This document shows positions 37,851 through 55,717 of a stretch of DNA of 64,000 nt, piece by piece. Source of the stretch: an uncultured virus (IMG/VR IMGVR_UViG_3300047476_001538) (taxonomy: Duplodnaviria; Heunggongvirae; Uroviricota; Caudoviricetes); the IMG/VR virus record IMGVR_UViG_3300047476_001538, positions 11,772 to 75,771 of that record; one strand, 5' to 3'. The position numbers and the translations under genes are program-made. The notes under the pieces were generated by a model, which worked only from the letters and a program-made list of their open reading frames with translations, was not told where the DNA came from and did not search any database. The stretch's first letter is position 1; every line of letters begins with the position of its first letter.

Positions 37851-37930
37851 CTATCAAAAAGTATACTGTCTACTGGCGTATGAGACAACACTGCTCATAA
37901 TAAAGGTCCAAACAGTATACTTTTTGATAG
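37851..37930 (+). ncRNA. Long hairpin with internal bubble, candidate ncRNA
   Basis: Perfect 19-bp inverted repeat; inner TATGAG/CTCATA stem; GATAAATA at 37814. Confidence 0.5.
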
Positions 37931-37969
37931 ACGAGAAAGGATTTGAATTAAACAATGGTTGTATATCTT

Positions 37970-38280
37970 TCAAAGTGAAGGCATTGCGGACGGCGGTTCG
38001 ATCCCGCCCATTTCCAAAAATTTCTCTTCAAGATCATTCGACTGAGTGATCTTGTGGGGAATGACATGGTTTCGACGTGGTGAGATAGTGGAGAAGGCAA
38101 CCCGAGAGATGTCTGACGTAATCAGCATAAACATTATAGATGCTAAATCTACAAAAACTTCTGGAACTGTTACTGTATCTGGTAAGGGCATGAAATTTTC
38201 TGCTCGCACCGCTGTACGTGGAGTTGCGCTAGCCTAAGAAACTGGCACCAGCGGAGTTGATCACTCTGTTACAAGAACGA
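37970..38280 (+). ncRNA. ssrA: Circularly permuted (two-piece) tmRNA; outer ends approximate
   Basis: T-arm GGCGG-TTCGATC-CCGCC plus CATTTCC-A (38009-16) precedes the 5' strand GGGAATG (38057-63; G3.U70) and GGTTTCGAC; tag frame 38142-38237 ends VALA. Confidence 0.9.
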
Positions 38281-49552: not shown

Positions 49553-50092
49553 ATGAGAGCAAAGGAACTGTTTGAAAAGTTGAATCATTACAACGACGGC
49601 ACAAGAACTTTGTTTGAAAGCATTGCTGTACCAGAAGTCAATCAAGCTCTTATAGATTGGAACAAACATCAACACAACGGAGTGTTGATAGGCGGTTGTG
49701 CTCTTAGCTTTTACGTCAGACCAAGGACTACAATGGACGTTGATGTTCTTTTTTTAACAGACGATTCGATACCAAAAGAAGTCAGTGGTTTTAAAAGAAC
49801 AAGACCTTCTGCATTTCAACATAACAAAACACATGTTGGGATTGAACTCGTCACTTCACTGTTGATAGGAATATCACAAGAATTAACTCAAAAAGTTTTT
49901 GATACTGCGATGATCTCCGACAATGTTAAAATCGCAAGTCCATCCGCTCTTGTTGCATTGAAGCTACATAGATTTAATCGCCAAGATCAAGCTGACATAG
50001 AAGAATTGATGAATCATTATACCATCGATTTACAAGATTGGCCACTGTCCGAAAAGGCCAAGGCGCATTACGAAAAAGTACTGACTTGGTAA
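49553..50092 (+). CDS. AbiEii/MenT-like nucleotidyltransferase with internal-protein-like leader
   Basis: MRAKELFE..LFE; IGG.A....RPR.T.DVD; LVALK..R.QD..D. Confidence 0.8.
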   Translation: MRAKELFEKLNHYNDGTRTLFESIAVPEVNQALIDWNKHQHNGVLIGGCALSFYVRPRTTMDVDVLFLTDDSIPKEVSGFKRTRPSAFQHNKTHVGIELVTSLLIGISQELTQKVFDTAMISDNVKIASPSALVALKLHRFNRQDQADIEELMNHYTIDLQDWPLSEKAKAHYEKVLTW

Positions 50093-50168: not shown

Positions 50169-50768
50169 ATGAAAATTTCAGAAATAATTACCAATCCGCC
50201 CAGAGATGAATATATTGATCAATATCAGTATCATTTTTCCGATTGCCCAACCGTTGCTACCATTAAAAATTTACAGCTAAAAAAATGCGAATCACAGGAT
50301 GAAATTGAATATGGTCTGATTGATTCCAAGGACCATATAGTAGGCTATTTTTCATTAGATCGGTACGATGACGACATTTGGTCAGTTAATTTAGTTCAAT
50401 TAGCACAGGCATACAAAGGAATGGGATATGGAACATTCTTTTATGATTATGCTATCATGAACGATAAGCTAAAAATTTTATCGGATGCAACAAACACTGA
50501 AGGACAATTTGGCTCAAGAGCATTATGGGAAAGGCTAAAAAATAATCGTCGCTACGAGATAGTAGGATATGATACAAACACTGATTCAGTCATTCCTAAT
50601 GCCACTTCTGAAATGATTCATAATAATAAACCAAATACAAGATGGTTAGCCATTCCTCCATCAGAGACCATAAACGAATCAATTCAACGAATTCAGTCTC
50701 ACATGAAAAAGAGATATGTGGTGTGGTATGGTCCAGGTACCACATCTGAGACCTATTTTAATTACTGA
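50169..50768 (+). CDS. GNAT-like protein with internal-protein-like leader
   Basis: MKISEII; YKGMGYG..Y..SD..T..SRALW. Confidence 0.7.
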   Translation: MKISEIITNPPRDEYIDQYQYHFSDCPTVATIKNLQLKKCESQDEIEYGLIDSKDHIVGYFSLDRYDDDIWSVNLVQLAQAYKGMGYGTFFYDYAIMNDKLKILSDATNTEGQFGSRALWERLKNNRRYEIVGYDTNTDSVIPNATSEMIHNNKPNTRWLAIPPSETINESIQRIQSHMKKRYVVWYGPGTTSETYFNY

Positions 50769-50839
50769 CGCCCGATAAATATGAGTAATCGAAGAGGAAA
50801 AATTATACTGGTTGATTTGTTGATGATAAATAATCAATA

Positions 50840-50913
50840 CGGCCTTGACGAGATTCGAACTCGTAACCTTCCCATTAGTCAAGCAGGCGCTCTGTCCATT
50901 GAGCTACAAGGCC
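50840..50913 (-). tRNA. tRNA-like gene with aberrant anticodon arm (nominal GAC/Val, uncertain), no encoded CCA
   Basis: GGCCTTG/CAAGGCC, GCTC/GAGC D-stem, ACGAG-TTCGAAT-CTCGT; promoter TTGACT-N17-TAATAT at 50948-50920. Confidence 0.75.
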
Positions 50914-50996
50914 GTGTCTATATTACACGATTATCATCAGGCAGTCAAGGTAAATTTTTATGGCAGTCTTCGGCGTAGATAAATAAGATTTATAAT

Positions 50997-51071
50997 GCCT
51001 CTATAGTTTAACGGGAAAAACAAGGGATTTGTAACCCCTAGTTCCCGGGTCAGTTCCGGGTGGGGGCTCCA
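50997..51071 (+). tRNA. tRNA-Thr(TGT) with non-canonical T-loop
   Basis: GCCTCTA/TGGGGGC-T-CCA; anticodon 51030-32; T-loop GTCAGTT. Confidence 0.85.
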
Positions 51072-51077
51072 TTTAAG

Positions 51078-51103
51078 AAAAAGCGCATTTATTGCGCTTT
51101 TTT
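51078..51103 (+). terminator. Intrinsic terminator
   Basis: AAAAAGCGCA-ttta-TTGCGCTTTTTT. Confidence 0.85.
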
Positions 51104-51219
51104 GTTGTCACTTAAAAAGGTGATAAATAAATGTAGGTAATCAGATACACCACATATCCGAAACCGGTCTGGAGGACAACGGCTGTCCCTACGACATTAT
51201 TTATTATCTGGAGGAATCA

Positions 51220-51882
51220 ATGGCAATAATTGCTCTATATGTAAAAACTCATAGAAAAACAGGATTGAAGTATCTTGGTAAAACAACATCCGCTGATCCT
51301 TGTGTGTACAAAGGATCAGGCACTCGTTGGACTCGTCATCTGAACAAACACGGTGATGATGTTGACACGGAAATAATTCGCTGGTGTACTCCAGATTCTA
51401 TCAAATATTGGGGTATATACTTCTCCAATCTGTGGAATGTTGTAGAAGACGATAACTGGGCTAATCTTAGACCGGAAATAGGCGACGGTGGTTTTGGACC
51501 AGAACCAGGAGAGAAAGGAAGAGCCACTCAAAAAATATTGAGAGAAACCGACTCTGAATGGGTTGAGGAATGTAGTAAAGCAATATCATTGGGTGTGCAA
51601 AGATTCTACGAGGAGGGAGGAGTAGGATCATTCACTGGCAAAAAGCACGATATCAACTACTACAACAAACTAAAAATAACTCATCAAAATAACAAGCATC
51701 AACAAGGAGAAAAAAATTCACAGCATGGTACAAGATGGATAAATAATAGTGGATACAACACGAAGTGGAGTATTGACAATTCAATACCACTCGGTTGGAT
51801 GGCAGGTAGAATAATGAAACTACCATCGTTGCCAAAAGATGAAAAACAAAAATTATTGAGTCAGTTTATAGTAGATAAATAA
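51220..51882 (+). CDS. GIY-YIG (Seg-like) free-standing homing endonuclease in the tRNA cluster
   Basis: LYVKTH..LKYLGKT..YKGSG..W; WANL; NUMOD-like GEKNSQ.GT.WIN. Confidence 0.85.
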   Translation: MAIIALYVKTHRKTGLKYLGKTTSADPCVYKGSGTRWTRHLNKHGDDVDTEIIRWCTPDSIKYWGIYFSNLWNVVEDDNWANLRPEIGDGGFGPEPGEKGRATQKILRETDSEWVEECSKAISLGVQRFYEEGGVGSFTGKKHDINYYNKLKITHQNNKHQQGEKNSQHGTRWINNSGYNTKWSIDNSIPLGWMAGRIMKLPSLPKDEKQKLLSQFIVDK

Positions 51883-51895
51883 AATAACAGTTTAT

Positions 51896-51979
51896 TCCGA
51901 GATGACGAAACGGTAGCCGTAGTTGACTGTTAATCAACCGCCGAAAGGCTTGCAGGTTCAAGTCCTGCTCTCGGAGCCA
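51896..51979 (+). tRNA. tRNA-Asn(GTT) with long variable arm
   Basis: TCCGAGA/TCTCGGA-G-CCA; anticodon 51929-31; V-arm GCC-GAAA-GGC. Confidence 0.9.
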
Positions 51980-51991
51980 CATTAAAAATAC

Positions 51992-52020
51992 AAAGCCTCA
52001 ACATTGGGGCTTTTATTTTG
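51992..52020 (+). terminator. Terminator family (related copies at 52351-52378 and 52837-52862)
   Basis: AAGCCTCaacatYGGGGCTTTTATTTT. Confidence 0.8.
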
Positions 52021-52038
52021 TCTCCTATATTTCATCTA

Positions 52039-52067
52039 TTGACATTTATGCCACGGTATGATATGAT
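52039..52067 (+). promoter_or_regulatory. Sigma70 promoter for the GCC tRNA
   Basis: TTGACA-N17-TATGAT. Confidence 0.8.
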
Positions 52068-52079
52068 GTATCTGTAGTT

Positions 52080-52168
52080 GGGGTGGTGGCGGAATTGGTA
52101 GACGCGCTTGATTGCCAATTAAGTGGCTCTTGTATGTCGTAAAGGTTCGAATCCCTTTCACTCCACCA
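52080..52168 (+). tRNA. tRNA with GCC (Gly) anticodon, Ala-type acceptor stem and long variable arm
   Basis: GGGGTGG/TCACTCC-A-CCA (G3.U70); CTTGA-TT GCC AA-TTAAG; 17-nt variable region. Confidence 0.88.
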
Positions 52169-52453
52169 ACTACACCTAAATTTCAATGATTGGCATATTT
52201 TGATAAATACAAATTACAAGAGCCGCTTGATTGGATGCGTTCAAATCCATCACTTCCTTCTGATGGTGGCACATCGGTTACAATAAATAATAGTAGCATC
52301 GTGGTATCACGCTACAACACGTTTGGCTATTGGTACGCTGAACATCTTAGAAGCCTCAACATCGGGGCTTTTATTTTGCCTGTATTTTGCAGCTTGACAT
52401 CTACCGCAACATAGCGTACAATGGTCTATAAATACATAAAGAGGTATATGATC

Positions 52454-53963: not shown

Positions 53964-55313
53964 ATGTTGATTAATAAATCATACAAAATCAGAGCATATC
54001 CCACTTACGAGCAAAAAAGATTATTTGCTCGGACCGAAGGCGCTTGCCGGTGGGTATATAATCGCGGTCTGTATGAGATGTCTGAATCATATCGACAAAA
54101 GAAACGAGGCGAACGAGAAAAATCACTATCAATCAATGATATCAGCAAAGCACTAACTAATTGGAAGAAAGAAGAAGATACCGCTTGGTTGGGTGAAGTA
54201 TCAAGTGTTGCATTATCGCAATCACTCCAAAACCTTAAAACTGCTTTTGATCGCTTTTATAAAAAAATCAGTGGATACCCGAAATATCATAAAAGATTCA
54301 CTGCTTGCGCAATAAGATTTCATTTAGCGGGCAACAGATGTCCAAAAATGGTGACTAAATGGCACAATAAACAAGTCCAACTTCCATCAATTGGCAACAT
54401 TAAAATTGCTCAACCGGAACGATTACCAAATCAATACCCCAAAATGATCACGATGAGTCGTGATGCATGTGGCAGATATTTTATATCTTTTATGGTAGAA
54501 GTGGAACAACAAACATTATCACCTAACGATTCAATTGTTGGCGTTGATTTAGGAGTAAAAACCTTAGCAGTTTACTCAACCGGTGAGCAAGTAAAAGCAC
54601 ACCAAGCACTGAAGAAATTACAAAGAAGATTGAAGCACTTGCAGAGATGTTTAAGTCGCAAAGTTGGTAGTAAAAAAGGTCAAGTAAAATCAAATAGATA
54701 TAAAAAGCAACAAGCACGAGTAAACCGAGTTCATTGCAGAATAAGCGACTCCCGACATGATAGCCAACACAAATTAACACATGATTTAACTTATCGCTTC
54801 GGCATAATATGTCTTGAGGACTTGAACGTCAAAGGTATGATGACTCGTGCCAAGAACAAAAATGTTGCGCAAAAGCGAGGATTAAATAGAGGCATCGCTA
54901 ATGCCGGCTTTGGTGAAATACGCAGACAAATAGAATACAAAGCTAAATGGCGTGGTCGTGAAGTATTTTATGCTAACAGATGGGCACCAACAAGTCGGAC
55001 TTGCAATGAATGCGGTACCTATCAACAAGAATTTAATTTATCCATGCGTGAATGGACGTGTCCAGATTGCGGCACACATCACGATAGAGATTTGAACGCG
55101 ACAAAAAATATTGTTGTGTTCGCTACGGGGCTTGCTCCGGAAGCTATGGTCGGGCAGACCAAAAGTAATGCACGTGGAGGTATAAAAAGACTCAATGCCA
55201 GTGGTAATTTTACCACTGAAACAACTGAGATATCTATGAAGCGTGAACCCAAGAAGTTTTATCAAATCAACGAGGTCTTACCAAACGAGGTAGGACACCG
55301 AGGCTTGGTATGA
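53964..55313 (+). mobile_element. tnpB: TnpB RNA-guided endonuclease (IS200/IS605/IS607 type), no tnpA nearby
   Basis: HTH KSYKIRAYPT..CRWVYN; RuvC GVDLG, LEDL, DRDLNA; zinc finger CNEC..CPDC; promoter TTGACT-N17-TATAAA(TA). Confidence 0.92.
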
Positions 55314-55717
55314 CAGGCGGGGATGCCATTAGTTCTAAATCATTTTCTGATTTGGCTATCGGATTGAACGTATTGGCTGGCGAGAGTGGCATGGTTGATG
55401 TTGGGAAACTTGAGAGTGCTATCTCATCGTCTGAATATTATTCCTCATTTGAAGACAAGGTTGCTTCTATTATCAGAAGTATGATTAAAAATCATGCCTT
55501 TAGAGACGGCAACAAAAGAACTGCTGTTATGATGTTTAGATTGTTGGTGGCTCATTCCAGAAGAAGAATGAGTTTTAGTAACAAGGAATTAGTTGATTTG
55601 TTTGCTGATATAGCGGCCAATCATTATTCTGTTGAGGAAATACGAGATAAAATTTTCAAGAACGTATCAGAGGATTGTATGCGACACTGGCTCGATGTAA
55701 TTAAAAGAGGAGACTAA
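55310..55717 (+). CDS. doc: Fic/Doc family protein (Doc-like)
   Basis: NHAFRDGNKRTA; LESA; KVASI. Confidence 0.85.
   Translation: MTGGDAISSKSFSDLAIGLNVLAGESGMVDVGKLESAISSSEYYSSFEDKVASIIRSMIKNHAFRDGNKRTAVMMFRLLVAHSRRRMSFSNKELVDLFADIAANHYSVEEIRDKIFKNVSEDCMRHWLDVIKRGD

What the first reader, a model, noticed from the sequence alone, without database searches (positions are those of the whole stretch)
52080..52168. tRNA with a glycine anticodon on an alanine acceptor stem: candidate mistranslating tRNA
Seen: acceptor pairs G1-C72, G2-C71, G3.U70, G4-C69, with A73 and encoded CCA. The 5-bp anticodon stem presents TT-GCC-AA. The D-arm is Leu-like, the variable region is 17 nt, and the gene has its own consensus sigma70 promoter. 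Known: G3.U70 with A73 is the AlaRS identity; bacterial GlyRS uses U73 and C2-G71; AlaRS and LeuRS largely ignore the anticodon. Inference: it could be charged with Ala (or Leu) and read GGC/GGU, causing Gly-to-Ala substitution early in infection. Alternatively it is a decoy, or a recent GGC-to-GCC mutant of a tRNA-Ala.
Basis: partly seen in the sequence, partly recalled or inferred. Interest (0 to 1): 0.85.

Follow-up and report, generated by a model that had tools for sequence, protein, structure and literature searches.

The report
Leucine-type phage tRNA reading glycine codons
A freshwater giant phage carries a real transfer-RNA gene built like a leucine tRNA, with an alanine-type mark and a glycine anticodon, and next to it a short sequence that can pair with that tRNA; this suggests a deliberately wrong-decoding tRNA that the phage can switch off.

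Summary
Positions 52080-52168 are a full-length tRNA gene with anticodon GCC, G3.U70, A73, an encoded CCA, a 17-nt variable region and a near-consensus sigma70 promoter.

- The body is a class II leucine type, not an alanine type.
- G3.U70 occurs only in this copy. A sister phage has, in the same slot, a different Leu-type tRNA with anticodon ACC, G3-C70 and A73.
- I found 28 distinct Leu-type tRNAs with Gly anticodons (NCC) in viral contigs, metagenomes and MAGs. Of these, 23 have A73, which is the LeuRS discriminator, not the bacterial GlyRS one.

New here: 50 nt downstream on the same strand, 52215-52234 forms 20 contiguous pairs with the tRNA, from C35 through the 3' anticodon stem into the variable arm. 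A GATAAATA box, which resembles a T4 late promoter, lies directly upstream. Seven of the 28 family members, this copy included, carry such a cognate antisense element, and each element matches its own tRNA.

Best reading (about 0.45): a Leu- and/or Ala-charged decoder of GGY, made early and neutralised by an antisense RNA. Charging and expression are untested. The scan noted the same family, with antisense partners, on other DNA before. I tested that lead here and it holds.

The parts
51992..52013 (+). Intrinsic terminator that closes the preceding tRNA-Asn unit
   Evidence: 9-bp stem followed by a T run. A near-identical copy lies at 52351-52381 (D1).
52039..52067 (+). Sigma70-type promoter of the tRNA (TTGACA, 17 nt, TG-TATGAT)
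   Evidence: 11 of 12 matches with an extended -10. It is also conserved in sister contig L007.
52080..52168 (+). Class II Leu-type tRNA with anticodon GCC (52114-52116), G3.U70 (52082/52162), A73 and an encoded CCA
   Evidence: It is most similar to tRNA-Leu and to other Leu-type/NCC tRNAs. The family alignment shows changes on both sides in 15 of 21 pairs.
52202..52209 (+). GATAAATA box, a candidate phage late-type promoter resembling T4 TATAAATA; it would start an RNA at about 52215
   Evidence: 13 copies on the + strand against 2 on the - strand, with 4.6 expected. Copies lie about 20-30 nt before the starts of long genes (4343, 11301, 45486) and 11-14 nt before tRNA-Thr and tRNA-Asn. Promoter function is inferred, not shown.
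52208..52234 (+). Antisense element. The core 52215-52234 forms 20 contiguous pairs (2 G.U) with tRNA 52115-52134, covering C35, C36, the 3' anticodon stem and the variable arm.
   Evidence: inverted repeat I1, 27 nt, 81% complementary.

score 19, against a maximum of 14.5 in 2646 comparisons with non-cognate flanks.

it is the only complement scoring 15 or more in the whole 64-kb window.

duplex energy -52.6 kcal/mol, against a mean of -24.7 and a best of -38.5 for shuffled elements.
52106..52282 (+). Cassette (3' two-thirds of the tRNA plus the antisense element) that is replaced by other sequence in the sister allele
   Evidence: there is no similarity to L007 here, while the flanks are 96-99% identical; contigs from two other lake or freshwater studies join 52105 to 52283 with 67 other letters between, which is the L007-type allele.
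52348..52373 (+). Intrinsic terminator ending both the tRNA read-through transcript and the putative antisense RNA
   Evidence: 10-bp stem followed by a T run. No terminator lies between the tRNA and the element.

Best explanation
This is a working tRNA gene derived from tRNA-Leu whose anticodon reads the glycine codons GGC and GGU.

LeuRS ignores the anticodon and relies on A73 and the Leu-type D-arm and tertiary core, so the tRNA should be charged with leucine. This copy also has the full AlaRS acceptor set (G1-C72, G2-C71, G3.U70, G4-C69, A73), so it may be charged with alanine as well. It would therefore put Leu or Ala where the message says Gly.

It belongs to a sporadic, mobile family of Leu-type tRNAs with Gly anticodons. 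Several members bring along their own antisense RNA. Here the tRNA is made from a host-type (early) promoter. The antisense segment lies 50 nt downstream on the same strand, behind a late-type GATAAATA box. It would pair with the anticodon and variable arms, either in cis in the read-through precursor or in trans as a late small RNA. That pairing would unfold, mask or expose the tRNA to cleavage.

The result would be a time-gated mis-decoding tRNA: on early, off late.

Shown: gene structure, family, covariation, complementarity, promoter-like and terminator-like sites. Inferred: charging, use on the ribosome, timing, and the effect of the antisense RNA.
For: - A real, full-length tRNA.
- Leu-type body: the D-arm is identical to ARAGORN-called tRNA-Leu genes, and only tRNA-Leu genes match in phage records.
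- The sister phage has another Leu-type tRNA with a Gly anticodon (ACC, A73) in the same slot.
- There are 28 distinct Leu-type/NCC tRNAs. Of these, 23 have A73, and 15 of 21 stem pairs show changes on both sides.
- Leu-type tRNAs carrying Gln, His or Ser anticodons have instead switched their discriminator to match the anticodon (G73, C73, G73). Retained A73 in the NCC group therefore looks meaningful.
- The antisense element is far above the null.
- Six other family members have their own matching element 50-100 nt downstream. A promoter or terminator was found by the scan tool in L151, L069, L113 and L104.
- None of about 14 identity-adapted Leu-type chimeras has such an element.
- Precedents: nev-tRNA-Gly is Leu-derived, charged only with Leu, and decodes GGG as Leu in vitro (PMC3333845). 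tRNAProX mistranslates and is toxic in E. coli (PMC10404621). G3:U70 converts other tRNAs to Ala acceptors (PMC5389508, PMC11415595).
Against: - No charging or expression data exist. The one RNA run I laid does not cover this gene.
- GGU and GGC make up 62% of the phage's own Gly codons, so efficient mis-decoding would also damage phage proteins.
- The T stem is A-U rich with an A51.C63 mismatch, and the variable arm is weak. By the known T-stem rules for EF-Tu this predicts poor delivery to the ribosome.
- The sister allele and 21 of the 28 family members show no antisense partner within 500 nt.
- Irregular tRNAs with mismatched anticodons have been found charged yet unused in translation (PMC5389517, section read).
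- That GATAAATA is a late promoter rests on analogy and position only.
Confidence: 0.45

Rival explanations
1. It is an honest glycine tRNA on a borrowed chassis. GlyRS charges it through C35 and C36, and the phage uses it to supply its abundant GGY codons. The foreign Leu-type body might also make it invisible to host nucleases or toxins that attack host tRNA-Gly. The antisense element merely regulates its level.
For: - GGU and GGC are 62% of phage Gly codons, the usual logic for phage tRNAs.
- The anticodon loop UUGCCAA is a well-formed decoding loop with U33 and A37.
- Phages do place other anticodons on Leu-type bodies with matched identity, as in the Gln, His and Ser cases.
- The tRNA island is hypervariable, as expected in an arms race.
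- A defence system is known to cleave a class II tRNA variable loop, with phage tRNA loci as the counter-measure (PMC13096335).
Against: - A73, G2-C71 and G3.U70 all contradict the bacterial GlyRS set of U73, C2-G71 and G3-C70 (established knowledge).
- 23 of 28 family members keep A73, whereas the identity-adapted chimeras did change position 73.
- The complete LeuRS set is retained, so LeuRS would compete.
Confidence: 0.2
2. It is not a decoder at all. The tRNA-shaped RNA and its complement act at the RNA level. Possibilities include a decoy or sponge for a tRNA-directed nuclease or modifying toxin, a double-stranded RNA processing substrate, or a selfish RNA-only addiction module carried by mobile DNA.
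For: - A 20-bp perfect helix would form in the read-through transcript, whose predicted lowest-energy fold unfolds the tRNA.
- The T stem and variable arm are weak.
- Neighbouring genes include an AbiEii/DUF6036-like nucleotidyltransferase, a weak GNAT match and Fic/Doc, families that contain tRNA- or translation-targeting toxins.
- Allo-tRNAs are often near toxin-antitoxin systems and are often inactive in translation (PMC5389517).
Against: - The family conserves every feature needed for charging and decoding: A73, a 7-nt loop with U33 and A37, all four stems with covariation, and here an encoded CCA.
- No protein partner is conserved next to family members.
Confidence: 0.15
3. It is a decaying passenger: a Leu-type/NCC cassette recently dropped into a recombination hot spot and now drifting, with G3.U70, G7.U66 and A51.C63 as the first signs of decay.
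For: - There are three G.U pairs, one mismatch and a weak variable arm.
- This allele was seen only in the probable source samples, while other lakes carry the other allele.
- The slot is freely exchanged.
Against: - It has a near-consensus promoter, an intact CCA, a good Rfam score and an uninterrupted 20-bp complement.
- Decay would erode the complement first.
Confidence: 0.12
4. It is a sequencing or assembly error, or a one-step GGC-to-GCC mutant of a tRNA-Ala.
For: G3.U70 with A73 resembles tRNA-Ala, and GGC and GCC differ by one base.
Against: - The class II Leu-type body is unlike tRNA-Ala.
- The same stretch appears in three separately assembled runs.
- The sister phage and 27 other sequences also combine a Leu body with a Gly anticodon.
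Confidence: 0.02

Closest known systems
Nematode nev-tRNA-Gly(CCC) (Hamashima et al. 2012, PMC3333845; 2015, PMC4300185)
   Same: A class II tRNA derived from tRNA-Leu that carries a Gly anticodon. It is charged only with Leu and decodes a Gly codon as Leu in vitro. It is weakly expressed.
   Different: It is eukaryotic and nuclear, with anticodon CCC. It has no G3:U70, and no antisense partner or phage context is described.
tRNAProX family of Streptomyces and Kitasatospora (PMC10404621)
   Same: Natural bacterial tRNAs with dual identity. They mistranslate sense codons and are toxic when expressed.
   Different: They have a Pro body with Asn, Thr or Ala anticodons and sit next to a dedicated ProRS isoform. 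They have no antisense RNA and are not phage-borne.
Allo-tRNAs (Mukai et al., PMC5389517)
   Same: Irregular long-arm tRNAs with many non-cognate anticodons. They are charged through acceptor identity (Ser, or Ala when the tRNA has G3:U70), are patchy in distribution, lie near mobile or toxin-antitoxin genes, and are sometimes inactive in translation.
   Different: They have 8/4 or 9/3 acceptor/T geometry and Ser identity. This tRNA has the standard 7/5 geometry and a Leu-type D-arm.
G3:U70 variants of non-Ala tRNAs (yeast tRNAPro C70U, PMC5389508; human variants including tRNAGly(GCC), PMC11415595)
   Same: A single G3:U70 pair makes AlaRS charge a tRNA with another anticodon, which causes substitution by Ala.
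   Different: Those are point variants of otherwise cognate class I tRNAs. Here G3.U70 sits on a Leu-type body that should also be a LeuRS substrate.
Antisense-RNA antidotes of type I toxin-antitoxin systems such as hok/sok (my own knowledge, not tested here)
   Same: A small adjacent antisense RNA, with its own promoter, neutralises a harmful RNA product of the neighbouring gene by base pairing.
   Different: The target there is a toxin mRNA. Here it would be a tRNA, which I did not find described.

Membership tests
Bacterial tRNA-Gly (GlyRS substrate) | C35 and C36 in the anticodon | tested here: met
   The anticodon is GCC at 52114-52116.
Bacterial tRNA-Gly (GlyRS substrate) | U73 discriminator with G1-C72, C2-G71 and G3-C70 (established identity set) | tested here: not met
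   The tRNA has A73, G2-C71 and G3.U70.
Bacterial tRNA-Gly (GlyRS substrate) | Class I body with a short variable loop | tested here: not met
   The variable region is 17 nt and the D-arm is Leu-type.
tRNA-Ala (AlaRS identity) | G3:U70 wobble pair | tested here: met
   G at 52082 pairs with U at 52162 in both the Rfam and ARAGORN folds. It is unique among the 28 relatives.
tRNA-Ala (AlaRS identity) | A73 with G1-C72, G2-C71 and G4-C69 | tested here: met
   Read from the sequence.
tRNA-Ala (AlaRS identity) | Ala-type class I body and NGC anticodon | tested here: not met
   The body is class II Leu-type and the anticodon is GCC.
tRNA-Leu (LeuRS identity) | A73 discriminator | tested here: met
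tRNA-Leu (LeuRS identity) | Leu-type D-arm and core: 3-bp D stem, A14, A15, G18G19 in the loop AAUUGGUAGA, U48 | tested here: met
   Identical to the D-arm of the tRNA-Leu(UAG) of Xanthomonas phage Xoo-sp13 and of other ARAGORN-called or annotated tRNA-Leu genes.
tRNA-Leu (LeuRS identity) | Leu anticodon (NAG or YAA) | tested here: not met
   The anticodon is GCC. LeuRS of bacteria is known not to need the anticodon.
tRNA-Leu (LeuRS identity) | Aminoacylation with leucine | not testable with these tools
   Needs a charging assay.
Leu-type tRNAs with a Gly anticodon and a cognate antisense partner (family seen in this scan; not found in the literature) | Leu-type D-arm, long variable arm, NCC anticodon, A73 | tested here: met
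Leu-type tRNAs with a Gly anticodon and a cognate antisense partner (family seen in this scan; not found in the literature) | A 16-24-nt element complementary to the tRNA's own anticodon or variable arm within about 100 nt downstream | tested here: met
   The element lies at 52215-52234 and scores 19 against a null maximum of 14.5. Six other members have one.
Leu-type tRNAs with a Gly anticodon and a cognate antisense partner (family seen in this scan; not found in the literature) | The element is transcribed as a separate RNA | tested here: inconclusive
   Here only the GATAAATA box suggests it. Sigma70-like promoters were found by the scan in L151, L069 and L113, and a terminator in L069 and L104. 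None was found by the scan in L080 or L118. There is no RNA data.

The most novel reading that the evidence does not exclude
This is an all-RNA poison-and-antidote pair in a phage. The tRNA deliberately inserts Leu or Ala at glycine codons early in infection, corrupting newly made host proteins or saturating host protein quality control. A late antisense RNA then disarms it before virion proteins are made. The same two-gene module moves among bacteria, candidate-phyla-radiation (CPR) bacteria and phages.
Probability: 0.3. Interest if true: 0.9.

Novelty: new variant of a known kind. Interest (0 to 1): 0.78.

Why it matters
Natural tRNAs that deliberately break the genetic code are known from only a few systems: nematode nev-tRNAs, Streptomyces tRNAProX and acidobacterial allo-tRNAs.

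A phage-borne Leu/Ala-type tRNA for glycine codons would extend programmed mistranslation to virus-host conflict. Its pairing with a private antisense RNA would give the first example I can find of a tRNA controlled like a type I toxin.

The module is small, about 300 nt, and self-contained. The idea can therefore be tested directly by expression in a laboratory strain.

The finding also warns that tRNA genes annotated by anticodon alone, here as 'tRNA-Gly', can be wrong about the amino acid.

Tried and rejected
- Megablast of the locus against phage records found nothing.
- Exact-pattern scans for the same tRNA with any anticodon, and for the promoter, found only the sister contig.
- I looked for a protein gene conserved next to Leu-type/NCC tRNAs, such as a private synthetase. 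None is shared across lineages.
- I tested the idea that the phage avoids GGY codons so that the tRNA would hurt only the host. It does not: GGT is 37% and GGC 25% of Gly codons.
- The distant relatives Sinorhizobium phage Phosso and Agrobacterium phage Atu_ph07 (PolB 45-48% identical) have no such tRNA.
- The sister allele L007 has no antisense partner within 500 nt.
- Expression: the one metatranscriptome run that holds part of the stretch covers only the tRNA-Asn side, not this gene. I draw no conclusion from that.
- ORF 52190-52414, which overlaps the element, has no Pfam or PHROG match, and its 5' part is absent from the sister phage. I treat it as spurious.
- Literature searches for phage mistranslating tRNAs, antisense RNAs to tRNAs and 'toxic tRNA' antitoxins found nothing relevant in the held library.
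- tRNAscan-SE isotype scores were not available.

Full report
**The object.** The window is part of a 75.8-kb IMG/VR viral contig that CheckV estimates at 21% complete, so it is a fragment of a giant phage. Its B-family DNA polymerase is 45-48% identical to those of Sinorhizobium phage Phosso and Agrobacterium phage Atu_ph07 and 42% to Rak2-like enterobacterial jumbo phages. The runs that hold the stretch are freshwater and lake metagenomes.

ARAGORN calls an 89-nt tRNA-Gly(GCC) at 52080-52168. Rfam's tRNA model matches it end to end at 48.6 bits. Reading the sequence gives:
- Acceptor stem G1-C72, G2-C71, G3.U70, G4-C69, U5-A68, G6-C67, G7.U66, with A73 and an encoded CCA.
- D-arm GCGGAAUUGGUAGACGC.
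- Anticodon stem CUUGA/UUAAG and loop UUGCCAA.
- A 17-nt variable region with only a weak stem.
- T stem AAAGG/CCCUU with an A.C mismatch.

A TTGACA-17-TG-TATGAT promoter lies at 52039-52067, and a terminator precedes it.

**Which kind of tRNA body it is.** A sensitive search of phage records with the gene matched only tRNA-Leu genes, through the acceptor 5' strand and D-arm. The matches were Xanthomonas phage Xoo-sp13 Leu(UAG), a Moraxella phage gene annotated tRNA-Leu, and a gut phage Leu(GAG). In global alignments the best partners are other Leu-type tRNAs with Gly anticodons and true tRNA-Leu genes, not canonical tRNA-Gly. The body is therefore a class II leucine type.

**Relatives.** A 15-kb viral contig (L007) is a sister of this phage. 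Its flanking DNA is 94-99% identical. In the same slot, behind the same promoter, it has a different Leu-type class II tRNA with:
- anticodon ACC (also Gly),
- acceptor stem CGGGUUG/CAACCCG, so G3-C70,
- A73 and no encoded CCA.

Contigs from two other lake or freshwater studies carry that second allele. They join 52105 to 52283 with 67 other letters between. So 'Leu body plus Gly anticodon' is kept across alleles, while G3.U70 is not.

Pattern scans for a Leu-type D-arm followed by U-NCC-A gave 28 distinct well-folded tRNAs of 76-93 nt with anticodons GCC, UCC, CCC or ACC. The scans covered viral contigs, 241 million metagenome records and 185,579 species genomes. Hits came from soils, sediments, gut samples, MAGs of Pseudomonadales, Saccharibacteria, Nitrospinales, Paracoccaceae and others, and one Butyribacter isolate. 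Of the 28:
- 23 have A73.
- Only the window copy has G3.U70.
- In an alignment of 22, 15 of 21 stem pairs keep pairing through changes on both sides. This is the signature of RNAs kept functional as tRNAs.

It showed Leu-type bodies carrying Gln, His and Ser anticodons whose discriminators had switched to the base expected for that anticodon (G73, C73, G73). Against that background the retained A73 of the NCC group argues that these tRNAs stay LeuRS substrates.

**The antisense element.** Earlier notes of this scan on other genomes said that such tRNAs sit beside a short element complementary to themselves. I treated that as a lead and tested it.
- In the window, 52215-52234 forms 20 contiguous pairs (two G.U) with 52115-52134. 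That region runs from C35 and C36 through the 3' anticodon stem into the variable arm.
- The wider inverted repeat is 27 nt.
- In 2646 comparisons of family tRNAs with non-cognate flanks, the best contiguous score was 14.5. The window pair scores 19.
- It is the only complement scoring 15 or more anywhere in the 64-kb window on either strand.
- The predicted duplex energy is -52.6 kcal/mol, against a mean of -24.7 for shuffled elements. The lowest-energy fold of the read-through transcript has the tRNA unfolded onto the element.
- The element lies inside the 177-nt stretch that the sister allele lacks, so the tRNA and its complement travel together.

Six other family members have their own element 50-100 nt downstream, each matching its own tRNA sequence:
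- L080 (24 pairs), L151 (22) and L069 (17) carry it on the same strand.
- L104, L113 and L118 carry it on the opposite strand, behind a terminator-like hairpin shared with the tRNA: called by the scan tool in L104, seen only by eye in L113 and L118.
- The promoter scan puts a sigma70-like promoter directly in front of the element in L151, L069 and L113, and a terminator after it in L069 and L104. It found none in L080 or L118.
- None of about 14 Leu-type chimeras with adapted identity has such an element.

**Timing.** No terminator separates the tRNA from the element, so the early transcript contains both. In addition a GATAAATA box lies at 52202-52209. This motif occurs 13 times on the coding strand, 2 times on the other, with 4.6 expected. 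It lies about 20-30 nt before the starts of long genes and 11-14 nt before tRNA-Thr and tRNA-Asn. By analogy with the T4 late promoter TATAAATA, which is my own knowledge, it would start an RNA at about 52215, the first base of the perfect complement.

The minus-strand tRNA-Val has a sigma70-like promoter and a plus-strand GATAAATA that would start at its 3' end. The island therefore looks organised into host-promoter tRNAs, each opposed by a GATAAATA-driven antisense RNA, and GATAAATA-driven tRNAs. This is inference from position only.

**Mechanism and its limits.** From established identity rules:
- Bacterial LeuRS needs A73 and the Leu-type D-arm and core, and ignores the anticodon.
- AlaRS needs G3:U70, helped by A73, G2-C71 and G4-C69.
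- Bacterial GlyRS needs U73, C2-G71, G3-C70, C35 and C36.

This tRNA meets the Leu set fully and the Ala acceptor set fully. It meets only the anticodon part of the Gly set. Precedents exist for each step: nev-tRNA-Gly (PMC3333845), tRNAProX (PMC10404621), and G3:U70 variants (PMC5389508, PMC11415595). I therefore favour a Leu- and/or Ala-charged decoder of GGY that is gated by its antisense RNA.

Against this:
- GGU and GGC are 62% of the phage's own Gly codons.
- The A-U rich, mismatched T stem predicts weak EF-Tu binding.
- The sister allele and most family members lack a detectable partner.
- Comparable irregular tRNAs were charged yet inactive in translation (PMC5389517).
- There is no evidence on charging or expression.

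**Novelty.** The held literature describes mistranslating tRNAs in nematodes, actinomycetes and acidobacteria. A 2024 review of the field mentions neither phages nor this family. Searches for antisense control of a tRNA or 'toxic tRNA' antidotes found nothing. Earlier follow-ups in this scan reached the same family on other DNA. The present window adds a phage copy with an added AlaRS mark, natural allele replacement in the same slot, and a late-box-driven antisense element.

Noticed in passing
window 50793-52283 versus L007 11841-13329: The tRNA island is a hypervariable patch in otherwise 94-99% identical phages. The Thr, Asn and Gly slots hold unrelated tRNA sequences in the two phages. The ORF between them, which has a weak PHROG 'HNH endonuclease' match and a GIY-YIG-like N-terminus by eye, is only about 70-80% identical.
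   Followed up: partly
window 51896-51979 (+): The tRNA-Asn(GUU) has a 13-nt variable arm, so it is class II-like, and G73. A metatranscriptome contig from another study covers 51850-51978 without differences and stops at the tRNA 3' end.
   Followed up: partly
window 50839-50914 (-) and 50825-50832 (+): The tRNA-Val(GAC) has a weak anticodon stem (two G.U pairs and a C.A mismatch) and U37. A plus-strand GATAAATA box would start a fully antisense RNA exactly at its 3' end.
   Followed up: partly
window, + strand: 4320, 10236, 11271, 37814, 42566, 45456, 50774, 50825, 50978, 51122, 51738, 51874, 52202: GATAAATA is strongly strand-biased (13 against 2, with 4.6 expected). Seven copies lie in the 1.5-kb tRNA island. 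It is a candidate late promoter resembling T4 TATAAATA.
   Followed up: partly
L158-L269 (viral contigs, many from one gut data set): 94 of 114 hits have a Leu-type acceptor 5' strand and D-arm, and a matching T-arm and acceptor 3' strand. The anticodon and variable arms are replaced by a 50-80-nt unrelated, highly variable insert. ARAGORN does not call them. They are unexplained tRNA-shaped RNAs or intron-bearing tRNA-Leu genes.
   Followed up: no
L192, L199, L211, L254, L264, L168, L240, L224 (viral contigs): Leu-type D-arm tRNAs carry Gln(UUG), His(GUG) or Ser(GCU) anticodons, and their discriminators match the anticodon (G73, C73, G73). Phages seem to reuse the Leu chassis for other identities.
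   Followed up: partly
L026, L028, L033, L095, L102, L140 (Wolfebacteria MAG): These loci share an identical Leu-type tRNA-like gene with a 6-nt anticodon loop UUACCA, for which ARAGORN reports a 2-nt anticodon.
   Followed up: no
L001, L003, L004, L031, L047, L111 (Butyribacter intestini and gut viral contigs): A Leu-type GCC tRNA-like gene whose top three acceptor pairs are broken (Rfam matches only model positions 4-67). Its leader and trailer can pair. In some copies a canonical 72-nt tRNA-Gly(GCC) lies 2 kb away.
   Followed up: partly
L114, L119, L122 (alphaproteobacterial genomes): Leu-type tRNA genes with an insert of about 30 nt in the anticodon loop region that ARAGORN does not call.
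   Followed up: no
window 37929-38208 (+): A phage-encoded circularly permuted (two-piece) tmRNA. Rfam scores are tmRNA_permuted 110 bits and beta_tmRNA 102 bits.
   Followed up: no
window 49553-50092, 50169-50768, 53964-55313, 55310-55717 (+): Genes around the island: an AbiEii/DUF6036-like nucleotidyltransferase, a weak GNAT match, a TnpB/IS605 OrfB-type gene and a Fic/Doc protein.
   Followed up: no
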